Shown here one piece after another: positions 163 through 10,772 of a stretch of 11,131 bases of DNA. Source of the DNA: a virus. Numbering within the stretch: the first letter of the stretch is position 1; every line of letters begins with the position of its first letter. The notes under the pieces were generated by a model. It made no database searches and was not told the DNA's origin. It saw only the letters and a list, made by a program, of their open reading frames with translations. A program made the position numbers and the translations under genes. The stretch lies in the UHGV virus genome UHGV-0072311; one strand, written 5' to 3'.

Positions 163-164
163 GT

Positions 165-192
165 CCATAAGAAAGCCCCTCCGGAGAGGGGC
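165..192 (-). terminator. Terminator-like hairpin on - strand (GCCCCTC / CGGA / GAGGGGC, then UUUCUUAU)
   Basis: Seen in sequence: 7-bp GC stem 175-181/186-192 with a tetraloop. On the - strand it is followed by a T-rich but interrupted tract (rc of 165-174). It lies downstream of the pR'-like promoter in the late direction. Confidence 0.3.
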
Positions 193-625
193 TGGAGAGT
201 GGCGCTATGTGCCATTGCATGGTGCCGGGTGCCTCCCGGTGAGTTCAGTATCAGCACCTGAACCCGCACAGAAAGGATAAGGGTCGGTGACAAAACACCA
301 GTTGCTGATTGCCCCTCCGCACAGGGGGATTCACCATGCCAGTTTCTTTTAACAAACTCCCCGCAAACCAGACAACAGTCAACCGCCTGAATTGTGAGGT
401 ATTTAAAAATTTCAACGGGTAACTGATACCCTGCTAATCGCCTGATGATGGATTGTAATCAACAACAGAAAGCACCATTTCTGGCGTTAATTTTATTTCT
501 TTCATCGCTTTACCTTAGGGATAGAGCCTGTTCGCGTAGATATGACAGCCAAGAGCGGAGCGATGTTTCCACCACCATATCTCAGGCCCATATCACTAAG
601 ACTCTTGTTTTGATTGCACGCGAAT

Positions 626-3341: not shown

Positions 3342-3503
3342 GACAACGCCCTCTGGTTGATGAATTTAACTATCACCACCGTCAGGTGCAAATCTTTGGG
3401 TGGTGAGACGTACAGGGTTTGCACTACCGGATCAACCAACCGGCGAGCCTTTCGGCTCCCCCATACGCCCCACCATAATTCAGATGTGCGTGTGCTTACG
3501 ACA

Positions 3504-3527
3504 ACAAAAAACACGCTCGCGGCGTGT
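3504..3527 (-). terminator. Intrinsic terminator on the - strand (ACACGC-CGCGA-GCGTGT then U5GUUGU)
   Basis: Seen in sequence: 6-bp stem 3511-3516/3522-3527, followed on the - strand by TTTTTGTTGT. It would stop - strand transcription that runs antisense through the + strand island before it reaches the ORF6N gene. Confidence 0.5.
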
Positions 3528-3609
3528 GTCTGTCGCGGTTGAATATCCGGGGTGCAAATCCCGACGCCAGATTTTGCTGGCGTGCGAAGAATATAATCCC
3601 GGATATGTG

Positions 3610-6537: not shown

Positions 6538-7278
6538 TCACATACCCTGACGTCCAACGTTTGACCGCCAGCTCTCCCAGTTAAAATTCACCCAACGACC
6601 ACCGTTCATGGTCATCCGGTCCATAATCCTCTCACCAAGAAGCGTGCTCATTGCGGCATGATTCAGGTTTGTCAGCATCCCGACACTGCGCAGTGATGCC
6701 GTCCGGCGGTCAACAATCTGGTGCAGTACCACCTGCTCGTTTTTCGTCTCACGCTGGATGCCAATTTCGTCAAGAACCAGGAGGTCCACTTCGCACAGTT
6801 CACGCAAAAATTTTTCCCCTGACAGTCCGTCGTCATAGCTGGCATGTAACGCGCTCATCACATCCGCCACGGTGACCACTATCACGGATTTACCGGCCTT
6901 CAGCAGACGATTACCCACAGCCGCCGCCAGATGATTTTTTCCGGTTCCCGGATTCCCGCTGAACACGAAGTTTGTATAACCGGTCATCAATTCATCGACA
7001 ATGGATTTCGCCTGGCTCAGAGCATGGCGCTGACCGTCGTTCTGCACCCGGTAGTTCCCGAATGAGCACTTCCTGTGAAGCGGCTGGATGCCCGAACGAT
7101 TCAGGATTTTTTCAACCCGCGTCTGGTGATTCTGGCGGTTAACTTCCTCGCTGCGCTTCCGGCCCTCAGCCAGTTGCCATTCCCGCCATTCGTCGGTCGT
7201 CCGGAACGGTGCTGCCACGTGCGGTGGTGCCAGACGGCGCACCCGTTCAAGAATCCCTCCTGTCGAAATGTTTTTCAT
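6538..7278 (-). CDS. DnaC-type replicative helicase loader (AAA+ ATPase, IstB-like)
   Basis: The product is closely similar along its length to my recollection of E. coli DnaC, including the Walker A motif GNPGTGKNHLAAAVG, the SGIQPLHRKCSFGNYRV region and the C-terminal MLTNLNHAAMSTLLGERIMDRM. SD GGGGG lies 8 nt upstream. Confidence 0.9.
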   Translation of the reverse strand: MKNISTGGILERVRRLAPPHVAAPFRTTDEWREWQLAEGRKRSEEVNRQNHQTRVEKILNRSGIQPLHRKCSFGNYRVQNDGQRHALSQAKSIVDELMTGYTNFVFSGNPGTGKNHLAAAVGNRLLKAGKSVIVVTVADVMSALHASYDDGLSGEKFLRELCEVDLLVLDEIGIQRETKNEQVVLHQIVDRRTASLRSVGMLTNLNHAAMSTLLGERIMDRMTMNGGRWVNFNWESWRSNVGRQGM

Positions 7279-7284
7279 GGCTGA

Positions 7285-8367
7285 TTACCCCCTGAAACCC
7301 GGCGGAATTTCGGTGTCCGGTTCAGAAATGTGATTCACGCAACGCAGGCTGACTGCGCCAGCCTTCGGCAGCGACCACGGATTTTCGAAATTCCTGTTCG
7401 GGCCAAAAAACGTCGATGCCTGCTGAACAAATTCAGTTCCCGCTTTCCCGGTAGCCTCCAGGTATCTTGCGTAACGCCTCACGCCATCCAGCACGACATC
7501 CGGTGACACCCCTTCGCGTAATCTGGCCCTCCAGGCATTGAACGCGGATTTCTTCGGGTTTGACCCTGCCCGATGCGGATATTCACGCCAGACCCGTTCG
7601 AACACGTCAGGATAATCAACTCGTCCCGCAGACGGTCCCGGCATCGCCCGGGTTAACCCAATCGGCTTCCCGCTCATCGCGGAATCGGCTTCAGGCTGCT
7701 GCGGTTGGCGTTGTTGCTCCGGTTCGACGATCAGCACCTGCTGCACACAACGCCCGGAATCTGCTTCCGGTGTCGTGCCATCTGGTCCTGGACGTTCAGT
7801 CAGAACAGGACAAAAATCCCCCTGTGGGTCCGTGGCGATTTTTTCGCCATGGACCAGAAGGGTTTTATCCCTTTCCTGTTCCTGTTCCTGTTCCTGTTCT
7901 TGGCTTGAAAGGGGCTCTGAAGGGGCTTCAATTTTCCGACATGATTCACGTCTGACATCCAGGTGGAAATCATCCTTATATCTATCATAAAAGGATGATA
8001 AAAAAGGATTTTCCAGCAACGCGGAATATTCATTTCTTACCCCAGCACAACGGTTATCGCCAGGTTTCAGCGATTCACCAACCTGCCATGCTGCCATTTC
8101 ATGCACCCATACAACCTCAGAATCATGGTCATAGCTGCAAAAACCAGCCTCGCAAGCCATTTGAAGCCCCTTAGAAGCCCCTTCAGGAGCAAGTCCGGTT
8201 TCGTGAGCAATGTACAAAACAGGCAGGTAATAAAGGCCCAGCATATTGGAATGAGGCGAGGTCATCATATACAACGCCACTACCATACATTCCGGACCAG
8301 ACTTCCTTAGTTTTCGCCCTGTATCGCCTAACCAGAACTGAGGTGAAATTGTTGCGTAATTACGCAT
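7285..8367 (-). CDS. Putative replication initiation / replisome-organiser protein (non-lambda-O type)
   Basis: The position (after the cII-like gene, directly before the DnaC-like loader with a 6-bp gap) matches the lambdoid O/P slot. The C-terminal motif FERVWREYPHRAGSNPKKSAFNAWRARL resembles the F..FW..YP.K..K..A..AW motif I recall from phage replication initiators. The gene contains an (EQ)n linker and AT-rich palindromic DNA. The family assignment is not verified. Confidence 0.6.
   Translation of the reverse strand: MRNYATISPQFWLGDTGRKLRKSGPECMVVALYMMTSPHSNMLGLYYLPVLYIAHETGLAPEGASKGLQMACEAGFCSYDHDSEVVWVHEMAAWQVGESLKPGDNRCAGVRNEYSALLENPFLSSFYDRYKDDFHLDVRRESCRKIEAPSEPLSSQEQEQEQEQERDKTLLVHGEKIATDPQGDFCPVLTERPGPDGTTPEADSGRCVQQVLIVEPEQQRQPQQPEADSAMSGKPIGLTRAMPGPSAGRVDYPDVFERVWREYPHRAGSNPKKSAFNAWRARLREGVSPDVVLDGVRRYARYLEATGKAGTEFVQQASTFFGPNRNFENPWSLPKAGAVSLRCVNHISEPDTEIPPGFRG
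7626..7718. repeat. Copy A of a ~70-bp direct repeat (copy B at 8398-8466); copy A carries a 23-bp internal insertion
   Basis: Seen in sequence: ccgcagacggtcccgg...aacccaatcggcttc...aggctgctgcggttgg(c/t)gttgttgct is shared at about 90 percent identity. Copy A lies inside the initiator coding sequence; copy B lies in the spacer upstream of it. Confidence 0.8.
7872..7899. repeat. Hexanucleotide microsatellite (CCTGTT)n, about 4.5 copies, encoding an (EQ)n linker on the - strand
   Basis: Seen in sequence: ttcctgttcctgttcctgttcctgttc at 7872-7899, translating to QEQEQEQEQE within the initiator protein. Confidence 0.9.
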
Positions 8368-8515
8368 AGTCCCCTCGCATACAAGATTTACTCCATACCG
8401 CAGACGGTCCCGGTATCTCCGGGATAACCCAATCGGCTTCAGGCTGCTGCGGTTGGTGTTGTTGCTGGCGAAATTCTTCCAGATGTGGCAGAATTATTCC
8501 CGTGTATTGCTCCAT
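8360..8515 (-). CDS. Small ORF (51 aa) between the cII-like gene and the initiator gene; possibly a remnant
   Basis: Translation is MEQYTGIILPHLEEFRQQQHQPQQPEADWVIPEIPGPSAVWSKSCMRGDYA. It spans repeat copy B, so part of the peptide mirrors residues inside the initiator. Its stop overlaps the initiator start and its SD is weak. It is below the ORF-track length cutoff. Confidence 0.3.
   Translation of the reverse strand: MEQYTGIILPHLEEFRQQQHQPQQPEADWVIPEIPGPSAVWSKSCMRGDYA
8398..8466. repeat. Copy B of the ~70-bp direct repeat (copy A at 7626-7718)
   Basis: See copy A. Copy B also contains the short palindrome CCCGG-TATCT-CCGGG. Confidence 0.8.
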
Positions 8516-8587
8516 GCCCTGCCTGAATATCAGATATTCATCAGGATTTGCTCAGAACGTCCGGCCCCAACCGGACGTTTTTTATTT
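8508..8587 (+). ncRNA. oop: oop-like antisense RNA overlapping the 3' end of the cII-like gene
   Basis: Seen in sequence: GGATTTGCTCAGAACG followed by a perfect 9-bp stem AACGTCCGG / CCCCAA / CCGGACGTT and TTTTTTATTTG at 8556-8587, with an upstream hairpin TGAATAT-CAG-ATATTCA at 8524-8540. Order and sequence closely resemble lambda oop RNA and its terminator as I recall them. The 5' end and promoter are not mapped. Confidence 0.6.
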
Positions 8588-8826
8588 GCATGAACGTTAA
8601 TGGCATGCTGGAAAGCCCGGCTGATCGGACTGATATCAGATGCCATCTGGAACGCGCATAAAATCGCCGCGATGTATCGCCAGTCGGTACGACTGACCTT
8701 CGATTCATGGCAGCCAATCATCTTTGCCAGTCCCCTTTGCGTCAGAGCTGACAGGTTGATGAGTAAATCTGTTTCTGCGCGATCAACGTCACGCTGTGAT
8801 AGTTTGCTGTAACTTGTTTGTGTCAT
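8530..8826 (-). CDS. cII: CII-family transcriptional activator (non-lambda allele)
   Basis: The position (first gene after cro/nutR) and the C-terminus ...ANKKRPVGAGRSEQILMNI resemble lambda CII (...TNKKRPAATERSEQIQMEF). The N-terminal two-thirds differ from lambda. An antisense oop-like terminator is embedded in the 3' end, as in lambda. Confidence 0.7.
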   Translation of the reverse strand: MTQTSYSKLSQRDVDRAETDLLINLSALTQRGLAKMIGCHESKVSRTDWRYIAAILCAFQMASDISPISRAFQHAINVHANKKRPVGAGRSEQILMNI

Positions 8827-8836
8827 TTCTTAATAT
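8804..8836 (+). promoter_or_regulatory. pRE-like promoter with a CII-box direct repeat (TTGC-N6-TTGT) and -10-like TAATAT
   Basis: Seen in sequence: TTGC (8804-8807), tgtaac, TTGT (8814-8817), then TAATAT at 8831-8836 followed by TTCC. This parallels lambda pRE (TTGC-N6-TTGC ... TAAGTAT TTCC), lies across the start of the cII-like gene and points toward cro and cI. Confidence 0.45.
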
Positions 8837-8911
8837 TTCCAATAGTGAATAGTTAGTTGAAAGGTATGCGTGGAAACGCATATGGCCTTAGTTGGTCAGA
8901 TATCTTGGGAC

Positions 8912-8964: not shown

Positions 8965-9165
8965 TTATGCAGTTGTTTTTTTGTTACTTGGGAAGGGCTT
9001 TATTTCTTCCGCATAAACGCTTCCATCAGCGTTTATAGTTAAAAAAATCTTTCGGCCTGCATGAATGGCCTTGTTAATCGCGCTTTGATATACGCCGAGA
9101 TCTTTAGCCGTCTTGGTTTGCCCAAAGCGTATTGCATAATCTTTCAGGGTTATGCGTTGTTCCAT
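8965..9165 (-). CDS. cro: Cro repressor (lambda-type)
   Basis: 66-aa product essentially identical to lambda Cro as recalled ([64 protein letters not shown]). SD AAGGAGG lies upstream. Confidence 0.95.
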
Positions 9166-9262: not shown

Positions 9263-9979
<717 letters not shown>

Positions 9980-10010: not shown

Positions 10011-10772
10011 ATGACACAGTTTCAACTTGCATTAATCGCTAGAGAAGTTGATGGAGAAGTCATCCATCTTCGCACCAAAGACGGATACATCAATGCCACC
10101 GCGATGTGCAAGTCTGCGGGGAAGCTACTTGCTGACTATACACGACTAAAAACAACACAAGATTTTTTTGATGAATTATCACGCGATATGGGGATTCCCA
10201 TATCGGAGTTAATTCAATCATTTAAAGGCGGAAGAGCAGAGAATCAAGGGACTTGGGTTCATCCAGACATCGCAATTAATTTAGCTCAGTGGCTATCTCC
10301 AAAATTTGCAGTGCAAGTATCGAGATGGGTGCGTGAGTGGATGTCAGGTGAAAGAGCGCCTGCCGAACTCCCTATCCACCTTAAGCGGTATATGACAAAC
10401 CGAGGCAGAGTTCCTCATACGCACTTTTCTATGCTTAATGAACTGACGTTTAACTTGGTTGCGCCACTTGAACAGGCCGGATATACGCTGCCAGAAAAAA
10501 TGGTCCCTGATATTTCAGAGGGTAGGGTTTTCTCGCAATGGCTCCGTGACAACCGGGGGGTTGAGCCGAAGACATTCCCAACATATAACCATGAGTACCC
10601 AGATGGCCGGACATTCCCGGTACGTCTATACCCAAACGAATATCTTGCAGATTTCAAACAACACTTCAACGAAGTGTGGCTGCCTCAGTACGCTCCTAAA
10701 TATTTTGCTGAACGAGACCAAAGGGCATTGACGTTGATTGAGAAAATCATGCTACCTGACCTTGATTCCTAA
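10011..10772 (+). CDS. KilA-N-domain protein in the cI operon, at the position lambda uses for rexA/rexB
   Basis: 253-aa ORF starting 32 bp after the cI stop with SD AGGA. The N-terminal ~115 aa fit the KilA-N pattern (GYINATAMCKSAGKLLADYTRLKTTQDFFDEL...GTWVHPDIAINLAQWLSPKFAVQVSRWV). I recognise no family for the C-terminal ~135 aa. A strong terminator follows. Confidence 0.75.
   Translation: MTQFQLALIAREVDGEVIHLRTKDGYINATAMCKSAGKLLADYTRLKTTQDFFDELSRDMGIPISELIQSFKGGRAENQGTWVHPDIAINLAQWLSPKFAVQVSRWVREWMSGERAPAELPIHLKRYMTNRGRVPHTHFSMLNELTFNLVAPLEQAGYTLPEKMVPDISEGRVFSQWLRDNRGVEPKTFPTYNHEYPDGRTFPVRLYPNEYLADFKQHFNEVWLPQYAPKYFAERDQRALTLIEKIMLPDLDS

What the first reader, a model, noticed from the sequence alone, without database searches (positions are those of the whole stretch)
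8508..8587. oop-like antisense RNA and terminator embedded in the 3' end of the non-lambda cII-like gene
Seen in sequence: on the + strand (antisense to cII) GGATTTGCTCAGAACG is followed by a perfect 9-bp hairpin and U6, preceded by a second perfect hairpin (8524-8540). The order and much of the sequence resemble lambda oop RNA as I recall it, although the cII allele differs from lambda. Inference: a conserved antisense regulator of cII is retained across a mosaic junction.
Basis: partly seen in the sequence, partly recalled or inferred. Interest (0 to 1): 0.45.

Follow-up and report, generated by a model that had tools for sequence, protein, structure and literature searches.

The report
Divergent oop antisense RNA gene
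This is a diverged copy of the classic phage lambda oop gene, a small RNA made from the strand opposite the end of the lysogeny gene cII; it is an ordinary, expected part of a lambda-like prophage, although this copy has a weakened promoter and has lost an SOS-repressor-like site.

Summary
On the + strand, GGATTTGCTCAGAACG (8544-8559) precedes a perfect 9-bp GC-rich hairpin plus T6 (8554-8583), inside the last 55 nt of a cII-family gene (8530-8826, - strand) of a lambdoid, Stx-phage-like prophage. A covariance model built from 24 oop-region sequences of other phages, none of this allele, matches 8502-8584 (+) end to end (49 bits, E 3e-8). This places the predicted RNA at 83 nt, from G8502 to U6A at 8584, against 77 nt in lambda. 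The terminator stem covaries across the family, and the window adds one more compensated pair. This argues for selection on RNA or DNA structure, not only on the CII C-terminus. It is an oop orthologue, a kind already described in lambda, P22, BTP1 and Stx phages. Transcription and function here are inferred, not shown. This allele differs in several ways. Its -10 is CAGAAT rather than CATAAT (the TG extension is kept, the -35 is poor). The LexA-like CTG-N10-CAG box over the start site is destroyed. The 5' half carries a 6-nt insertion. The RNA's 5' end overlaps the start of a doubtful small ORF. The second hairpin (8524-8540) is real but no better than chance. Interest is low: a new member of a known kind.

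The parts
8486..8494 (+). Predicted po promoter, extended -10: TGg-CAGAAT. It aligns to lambda TGt-CATAAT.
   Evidence: Alignments. The lambda -10 lies 8-13 nt upstream of the oop 5' end (PMC5869508). The TG is retained. The hexamer matches 4/6 of consensus, with A at -11 and T at -7 kept. The best -35 is TGGCGA (8466-8471), 3/6. The simple promoter scan does not call it, whereas it does call lambda's po.
8502..8584 (+). Predicted oop-like antisense RNA, 83 nt, from G8502 to U6A at 8584.
   Evidence: Covariance model R1 (24 family members, this allele excluded) matches 8502-8584 over model positions 1-77 of 77, at 49.2 bits and E 2.8e-8. The ends are placed by homology to the lambda 77-nt RNA, 38675-38599.
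8502..8516 (+). Conserved 5' leader block GTGTATTGCTCCATG. It is homologous to the family's GTGGATTGATCCAGT and carries a degenerate LexA-like box (CCG..CAT instead of CTG..CAG).
   Evidence: CTG-N10-CAG is present in 49 of 86 unique family sequences, including lambda. No match within 2 mismatches occurs here.
8518..8545 (+). 5' stem-loop: outer CCUG/CAGG, inner TGAATAT/ATATTCA at 8524-8540. It spans the cII stop codon.
   Evidence: Predicted. It is not better than shuffles (z = -0.37). Other family members form 5' hairpins in different registers, so there is no column-wise covariation.
8544..8559 (+). Conserved linker GGATTTGCTCAGAACG (lambda has GGATTTGTTCAGAACG).
   Evidence: It is invariant among variants of the window-type allele.
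8554..8583 (+). Intrinsic terminator (to): stem AGAACGTCCGG/CCGGACGTTTT, loop CCCCAA, then T6.
   Evidence: Terminator scan, fold, and family covariation: 98.1% of cells paired, 5 of 9 pairs with changes on both sides, 0 of 500 shuffles as good. The window adds a C-G to U-A change at one pair and U-G to C-G at the next.
8530..8826 (-). cII-family gene (98 aa). Its last 55 nt, including the stop codon, are the antisense target.
   Evidence: Pfam Phage_CII E 1e-25 and PHROG 191. Identity to lambda CII is 29%, with only the C-terminal NKKRP...RSEQI.M shared.
8360..8515 (-). Small ORF (51 aa, PHROG 2751). Its ATG (8513-8515) and upstream 14 nt lie under the 5' end of the predicted RNA. Its coding status is doubtful.
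   Evidence: Homologues occur only in E. coli, are 38-88 aa long, and end in three different C-terminal frames. Relatives carry variable tandem repeats here.

Best explanation
The element is the po-oop-to unit of a lambdoid prophage, an orthologue of lambda oop. Inferred mechanism: RNA polymerase starts at an extended -10 promoter (TGgCAGAAT, 8486-8494) that faces the PR operon. It begins near G8502 and stops at the intrinsic terminator at 8554-8583, giving an RNA of about 83 nt. This RNA is perfectly complementary to three parts of the cII-replication mRNA. These are the last 55 nt of cII including the stop codon, the 14-nt spacer, and the first 14 nt of the next ORF. As in lambda, the duplex would be cut by RNase III. 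This would lower CII and push the phage towards lytic growth. Convergent transcription from po would also dampen PR read-through into the replication genes. Shown here: the homology, the geometry, the terminator and its covariation. Inferred: promoter activity, the transcript itself, RNase III dependence and the effect on CII.
For: The genomic context is a lambdoid immunity and replication region: cI, cro, cII, then a DnaD-like loader and a DnaC-like protein. It is 96-98% identical to the Stx phages POCJ13 and 75/02 and to PhiR5_2. The pairwise alignment to lambda oop shows the same order of -10, start site, linker, hairpin and U6A. Covariance model R1, built without this allele, matches 8502-8584 (+) end to end at 49.2 bits and E 2.8e-8; the next best hit in the window is E 0.12. 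The overlap with cII is 55 nt, exactly as in lambda. All 16 cII loci from eight other genera carry an antisense GC-rich hairpin plus T5-6 inside the end of cII, each with a different stem sequence. Stem covariation is strong: 98% paired, 5 of 9 pairs doubly changed, 0 of 500 shuffles as good, and slid controls at 66% or less. The amino acids encoded by the stem differ (lambda PAATE, window PVGAG) while pairing is kept. Positions 8540-8592 are invariant among variants of this allele, while flanking positions vary. Literature: lambda OOP inhibits CII through RNase III (PMC5869508, PMC2327240). po interferes with pR (PMC3985674). oop RNAs have been detected in P22 (PMC13397905) and BTP1 (PMC7067206). 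oop-like sequences are known in Stx phages (PMC5488031).
Against: There is no transcript evidence for this allele. The -10 is CAGAAT, whereas every other family member examined has CATAAT or TATAAT. The -35 matches only 3/6. The consensus scan that calls lambda po does not call this one. In lambda, sequences 45-94 nt upstream of the start are needed for full po activity (PMC5869508), and here that region is unrelated. The 5' hairpin is not statistically supported. Rfam has no oop model, so there is no curated threshold to apply.
Confidence: 0.75

Rival explanations
1. Relic. The sequence descends from an oop gene, but po is now too weak to matter (CAGAAT, poor -35, unrelated upstream sequence). 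The hairpin and T-run would persist only through descent and the coding constraint on the CII C-terminus.
For: This is the only allele among about 86 unique family sequences with G at the third -10 position. The promoter scan is negative here and positive for lambda. The LexA-like box and the start codon embedded in the -10 have both been lost. Together these suggest a general loosening of promoter-region constraints.
Against: The TG extension and the critical A(-11) and T(-7) are kept, and lambda's own -10 is also imperfect. The stem carries compensated changes relative to other alleles, so pairing was selected during its divergence. The terminator and linker are invariant among variants of this allele while neighbouring codons vary.
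Confidence: 0.15
2. Protein constraint only. The similarity to lambda reflects conservation of the CII C-terminal tail, which is needed for CII activity and turnover. On this view the hairpin is a by-product.
For: Deleting the C-terminal 20 residues abolishes the CII activities (PMC5869508). NKKRP and RSEQI are shared with lambda CII.
Against: The CII C-terminal tails are the most variable part of the protein across genera. Every allele nevertheless keeps an antisense hairpin plus T-run, with compensatory changes that alter the amino acids. Homology also continues beyond the stop codon into the non-coding leader and the -10.
Confidence: 0.04
3. A + strand terminator that stops antisense transcripts starting further inside the replication region, insulating cII, cro and cI. 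On this view it is not the end of a dedicated small RNA.
For: The terminator is strong and works only on the + strand. On the - strand the hairpin is followed by UUCUGAGC, not a U-run.
Against: No + strand promoter-like site was found in 8200-8500. The homologous unit in lambda and P22 yields a discrete short RNA (PMC5869508, PMC13397905).
Confidence: 0.04
4. A trans-acting, prophage-encoded anti-sRNA of the AgvB type.
For: There is a weak Rfam match to AgvB at 8522-8583 (20.7 bits, E 0.18).
Against: The score is far below the family's gathering score of 56 bits. The match rests on the generic terminator. The GcvB-mimic seed is not matched. AgvB-type genes lie at the moron site downstream of PR', not at the cII-replication boundary (PMC4104026).
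Confidence: 0.02

Closest known systems
Phage lambda OOP RNA (po-oop-to; 77 nt, lambda 38675-38599)
   Same: Both sit antisense across the cII / replication-gene boundary and overlap cII by 55 nt including the stop codon. Both have an extended -10 placed 8 nt before a G start. The linker GGATTTGYTCAGAACG is shared. Both end in a GC-rich hairpin followed by U6A. The covariance-model match is full length.
   Different: The window RNA is 83 nt rather than 77, with a 6-nt insertion and a rebuilt 5' hairpin. The -10 is CAGAAT, not CATAAT, so it no longer contains the start codon of the next gene. The LexA-like CTG-N10-CAG box over the start site is lost. The stem is CGTCCGG/CCGGACG rather than CGCTCGG/CCGGGCG. 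The cII allele is only 29% identical at protein level. The downstream module is a DnaD-like loader plus a DnaC-like protein, not O/P.
oop of Stx phages carrying the common (933W-like) cII allele
   Same: The cII proteins are 78-81% identical. The 5' leader is close (GTGTATTGATCCAG in L038 against GTGTATTGCTCCAT here). Architecture is the same.
   Different: Those phages carry an almost lambda-identical oop. It is joined to at least four unrelated replication modules, with the junction at the -10. The window allele is about 70% identical over this stretch and has been seen with one module only.
P22 oop and OOP-BTP1 (Salmonella P22-like phages)
   Same: Both lie antisense to the 3' end of c1/cII. 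They share the TGgCATAAT-tactcct-GTGGATTGATCCAGT promoter and leader. The RNAs have been detected by RNA-seq (PMC13397905, PMC7067206).
   Different: The RNA is shorter (about 63-66 nt) and the terminator sequence is unrelated. The lambda-type covariance model does not find it at E 1 or better, whereas it does find the window element.
AgvB anti-sRNA (Rfam RF02702)
   Same: Both are short and prophage-encoded, with a terminator hairpin plus U-run.
   Different: The Rfam score is sub-threshold (20.7 against 56 bits). The genomic position differs and the seed is not matched.

Membership tests
lambda-type OOP antisense RNA (po-oop-to) | Encoded antisense to the 3' end of a CII-family activator gene, spanning the boundary with the replication genes | tested here: met
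   The cII gene is at 8530-8826 (-), Pfam Phage_CII E 1e-25. The predicted RNA at 8502-8584 (+) overlaps it by 55 nt, as in lambda.
lambda-type OOP antisense RNA (po-oop-to) | Sequence and structure homology to known oop RNAs | tested here: met
   A model built from 24 family members, excluding this allele, gives a full-length hit at 49.2 bits, E 2.8e-8. The pairwise alignment to lambda agrees. Rfam 15 has no oop family, so no curated cut-off exists.
lambda-type OOP antisense RNA (po-oop-to) | Intrinsic terminator (to) inside the cII ORF on the antisense strand, supported by covariation | tested here: met
   The stem has 11 pairs, 6 of them G-C, followed by T6. In the family, 98.1% of cells are paired and 5 of 9 pairs are doubly changed, with 0 of 500 shuffles as good. 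The window stem is perfect and adds further compensated changes.
lambda-type OOP antisense RNA (po-oop-to) | Functional po promoter with its -10 placed 8-13 nt upstream of the 5' end | tested here: inconclusive
   TGgCAGAAT is at the homologous position. However, the hexamer matches 4/6 and the -35 matches 3/6. The scan that detects lambda po does not call it. Promoter activity cannot be measured with these tools.
lambda-type OOP antisense RNA (po-oop-to) | LexA-type operator overlapping the start site (reported for lambda; CTG-N10-CAG is present in long-form members) | tested here: not met
   Lambda has CTGTTGATAGATCCAG across +1, and 49 of 86 unique family sequences keep CTG..CAG. The window has CCGTGTATTGCTCCAT, with no match within 2 mismatches. 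This is an accessory feature rather than a defining one: short-form members also lack it.
lambda-type OOP antisense RNA (po-oop-to) | A discrete transcript of about 77 nt is made | not testable with these tools
   No expression data are available here. Related RNAs have been detected in lambda, P22 and BTP1 (PMC5869508, PMC13397905, PMC7067206).
lambda-type OOP antisense RNA (po-oop-to) | RNase III-dependent cleavage of cII mRNA and reduced CII activity | not testable with these tools
   Known for lambda only (Krinke and Wulff, cited in PMC5869508 and PMC2327240).
AgvB anti-sRNA (RF02702) | Score at or above the Rfam gathering threshold | tested here: not met
   The score is 20.7 bits against 56 bits, E 0.18, and the match is driven by the terminator.

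The most novel reading that the evidence does not exclude
In this allele the oop unit may have been rewired. The start codon of the next gene has moved out of the -10 and 24 nt into the transcribed region. As a result the RNA's first 28 nt cover the ribosome-binding site and start codon of the first ORF of a non-lambda (DnaD/DnaC-type) replication module. The LexA-like operator has also been lost. The RNA would then be a dual-target antisense regulator, acting on CII and on translation of the replication operon, and it would be uncoupled from the SOS response.
Probability: 0.1. Interest if true: 0.4.

Novelty: new member of a known kind. Interest (0 to 1): 0.2.

Why it matters
oop is a textbook cis-antisense regulator of the lysis-lysogeny decision. 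This allele sits in Stx-converting and related prophages, including those of E. coli O104:H4 outbreak strains, and is found in 81 of 5426 complete E. coli genomes. No record annotates it and Rfam has no model for it. Recognising it completes the regulatory map of these prophages. It also offers a natural variant with a weaker -10 and no LexA-like box, which could be used to test how much po strength and SOS control contribute to the decision. It does not change what is known about the mechanism.

Tried and rejected
1. Rfam, at gathering and at permissive thresholds, has no oop family. Its only hit in the region, AgvB, is sub-threshold and driven by the terminator, so it was rejected.

2. The second (5') hairpin as evidence. 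It is present, but no better than dinucleotide shuffles (z = -0.37). Perfect 7-bp hairpins occur 22 times in the window. Across the family the 5' hairpins form in different registers, so no column-wise covariation can be claimed.

3. The scan of genome contigs with a CII alignment returned only 16 loci. These sufficed for diversity but not for large-scale statistics.

4. Model R1 does not detect the P22-type oop. It therefore tests membership of the lambda-type subfamily only.

5. I looked for this allele joined to other replication modules and found none. The same 81 E. coli genomes match whether or not the upstream side is included in the query.

6. I tried to establish the 51-aa ORF as a real gene. 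Its homologues have variable lengths and three C-terminal frames, so it was left as doubtful.

7. The literature search found no transcript data for this allele.

8. One preprint could not be fetched.

Full report
**Context**

The window is the immunity and early-right region of a lambdoid prophage, with PR reading leftward on the - strand.
- cI lies at 9266-9979 (+), with Peptidase_S24 and HTH domains.
- cro lies at 8965-9165 (-).
- A CII-family gene lies at 8530-8826 (-), Pfam Phage_CII E 1e-25.
- A 51-aa ORF lies at 8360-8515 (-).
- A 360-aa DnaD-like helicase loader or initiator lies at 7285-8367 (-).
- An IstB/DnaC-like ATPase lies at 6538-7278 (-).

The stretch 8300-8900 is 96-98.5% identical to Escherichia phage PhiR5_2, phiSTEC1589-Stx1c and the Shigella Stx phages POCJ13 and 75/02. 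The core 8440-8620 occurs in 81 of 5426 complete E. coli genomes, including O104:H4 outbreak strains. No record annotates an RNA here.

**Checking the observation**

- GGATTTGCTCAGAACG is at 8544-8559.
- A perfect 9-bp stem AACGTCCGG/CCGGACGTT sits within 8554-8581, followed by T6 at 8578-8583 and A at 8584.
- A perfect 7-bp hairpin lies at 8524-8540.

The whole stretch folds better than shuffles (z = -3.8).

The terminator is rare: only 4 perfect 9-bp hairpins occur on the window's + strand. The 7-bp hairpin is not rare: there are 22 in the window. The 5' part alone folds no better than dinucleotide shuffles (z = -0.37, p about 0.28).

On the - strand the hairpin is followed by UUCUGAGC. It is therefore not a terminator for the PR transcript.

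**Homology to lambda oop**

I fetched lambda 37800-39800. The 77-nt oop RNA runs from G38675 to U6A at 38599. This agrees with the -10 lying 8-13 nt to the right of 38675 (PMC5869508).

The pairwise alignment places these window features against lambda:
- TGgCAGAAT (8486-8494) on lambda TGtCATAAT;
- G8502 on the lambda start;
- the linker, hairpin and T6A on their lambda counterparts.

The overlap with cII including the stop codon is 55 nt in both phages.

The CII proteins are only 29% identical, and they share just the C-terminal NKKRP...RSEQI.M. The DNA similarity is therefore confined to the oop unit.

**The family**

From IMG/VR and GTDB genomes I collected cII loci and extracted the antisense strand around each cII stop.

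Every cII allele examined carries an antisense GC-rich hairpin plus T5-6 inside the end of cII. This includes alleles from E. albertii, Shimwellia, Superficieibacter, Atlantibacter, Tatumella, Yersinia, Symbiopectobacterium and Edwardsiella. The stem sequences differ between alleles.

Most alleles also carry a conserved TGnCATAAT (or TATAAT) 8 nt before a G start.

On an alignment of 24 distinct oop RNAs that excludes the window's allele (A5), the terminator shows clear covariation:
- 98.1% of cells are paired;
- 5 of 9 pairs have changes on both sides;
- 0 of 500 shuffles reach this;
- slid controls reach 66% paired at most. RNAalifold agrees.

The stem codons change the amino acids (lambda PAATE, window PVGAG) while pairing is kept. 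The CII C-terminal tail is also the most variable part of the protein across genera. Selection is therefore acting on nucleic-acid structure and not only on the protein.

**Formal membership test**

Rfam has no oop family. I therefore built a covariance model from A5 (R1) and searched the window with filters off.
- The top hit is 8502-8584 (+), covering model positions 1-77 of 77, at 49.2 bits and E 2.8e-8, with one 6-nt insertion. The next hit is E 0.12.
- Lambda scores 96 bits and PhiR5_2 scores 47.9.
- The P22-type oop is not found.

The window element thus belongs to the lambda-type subfamily. The window's stem adds one compensated change not seen in the 24 training sequences (C-G to U-A) and one U-G to C-G change.

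**How this allele differs**

1. The -10 is CAGAAT. Every other family sequence examined has CATAAT or TATAAT. The TG extension, A(-11) and T(-7) are kept. The best -35 is TGGCGA (3/6). The simple scan calls lambda po (TTGAGT-17-CATAAT, TG) but not this one. In lambda, 45-94 nt upstream of the start also contribute to po activity (PMC5869508). Here that region is unrelated.

2. In the other members the CAT within the -10 is the start codon of the downstream gene, whatever that gene is. Here the homologous triplet is CAG, and an in-frame ATG appears 24 nt further into the transcribed region. Compare lambda-type CTGGATCAATACACAGGAGTCATTATGACA with window ATGGAGCAATACACGGGAATAATTCTGCCA (23 of 30 identical). 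The RNA's first 28 nt would therefore cover the start and ribosome-binding region of the 51-aa ORF. That ORF is doubtful. Its homologues occur only in E. coli, are 38-88 aa long, and end in three different frames. Relatives also carry variable tandem repeats there.

3. The palindrome CTG-N10-CAG spans the start site in lambda (CTGTTGATAGATCCAG) and in 49 of 86 unique family sequences, with seven spacer variants. It fits the LexA box consensus. PMC5869508, citing Lewis et al. 1994, reports a LexA site in oop-po. I could not confirm that this is the same site. In the window it reads CCG...CAT, and no match within 2 mismatches exists.

4. The 5' half has a 6-nt insertion and a different 5' hairpin.

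**The mosaic claim**

Alleles of cII that are 78-81% identical in protein to the window's carry an almost lambda-identical oop. That oop is joined to at least four unrelated replication modules, with the break exactly at the -10. The oop unit is therefore a recurrent module boundary.

The window's copy is not a conserved cassette.
- Against the nearest other allele (L038), identity is 100% from about 8800 rightwards.
- It is about 90% over 8700-8800.
- It is about 63-80% over 8540-8700.
- It peaks locally at 77% over 8480-8509.
- It falls to background level to the left of that.

The window's copy is always linked to the same replication-side sequence in 81 genomes. Within this allele, 8540-8592 is invariant while flanking positions vary.

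**Mechanism**

Taken from lambda, the RNA would pair with the cII-replication mRNA and trigger RNase III cleavage. This would lower CII and favour lysis (PMC5869508, PMC2327240, PMC12197685). Convergent transcription from po also attenuates pR transcription and tunes replication (PMC3985674).

Diverged oop RNAs are really made in P22 (63-nt reads, PMC13397905) and BTP1 (PMC7067206). oop-like sequences in Stx phages are already noted in the literature (PMC5488031).

For this allele, everything beyond sequence homology and terminator structure is inference. The weaker promoter is the main uncertainty. I put about 0.75 on an expressed, functional oop orthologue and about 0.15 on a relic with negligible transcription. 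The remainder is spread over the minor rivals.

**Verdict**

The element is a new, divergent member of a well-known kind. Interest is low.

Noticed in passing
window 163-368 (-), 3396-3480 (-), 3506-3583 (-): Three Rfam hits above gathering score lie elsewhere in the window: STnc100 (143 bits), C4 antisense RNA (74 bits) and the adjacent isrK Hfq-binding RNA (75 bits). The isrK plus C4 pair resembles the Gifsy-1 IsrK/AntQ or P1-type c4-ant module.
   Followed up: no
window 8380-8470; L202 1602-1751: The region between the oop promoter and the replication gene holds repeats of variable copy number in relatives. PhiR5_2 has a 90-91-nt tandem duplication containing the palindrome GGGTTAACCC and a 16-nt repeat TTGGTGTGACTGCACA present twice. 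The window has a single copy. This shifts the frame and length of the annotated small ORF (38-88 aa). It may be a protein-binding or origin-related array rather than coding sequence.
   Followed up: partly
loci L001-L218, oop promoter region; window 8486-8494: Across unrelated downstream genes, the gene's start codon (CAT on the oop strand) is embedded in the oop -10. Where the hexamer is the imperfect CATAAT, the second codon is usually NCA, which gives the TGn extension. Alleles with a perfect TATAAT lack the TG. This looks like a promoter constraint imposed on the first two codons of whichever replication gene is attached.
   Followed up: partly
L001 863-878 (lambda 38662-38677) and homologous positions in 49 of 86 unique family sequences: A LexA-box-like palindrome, CTG-N10-CAG, spans the oop start site. 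Its half-sites are invariant and its spacer is variable in all long-form oop genes, including the P22 type. It is absent from short-form alleles and degenerate in the window.
   Followed up: partly
window about 8700-8830: There is a mosaic breakpoint inside cII. Against the common Stx-phage allele (L038), the 5' end of cII and the upstream nutR/tR1 region (8800-8889) are 100% identical, whereas the 3' two-thirds of cII are only about 63-80% identical.
   Followed up: partly
window 10011-10772 (+): A KilA-N domain protein (253 aa) is encoded immediately downstream of cI on the same strand.
   Followed up: no
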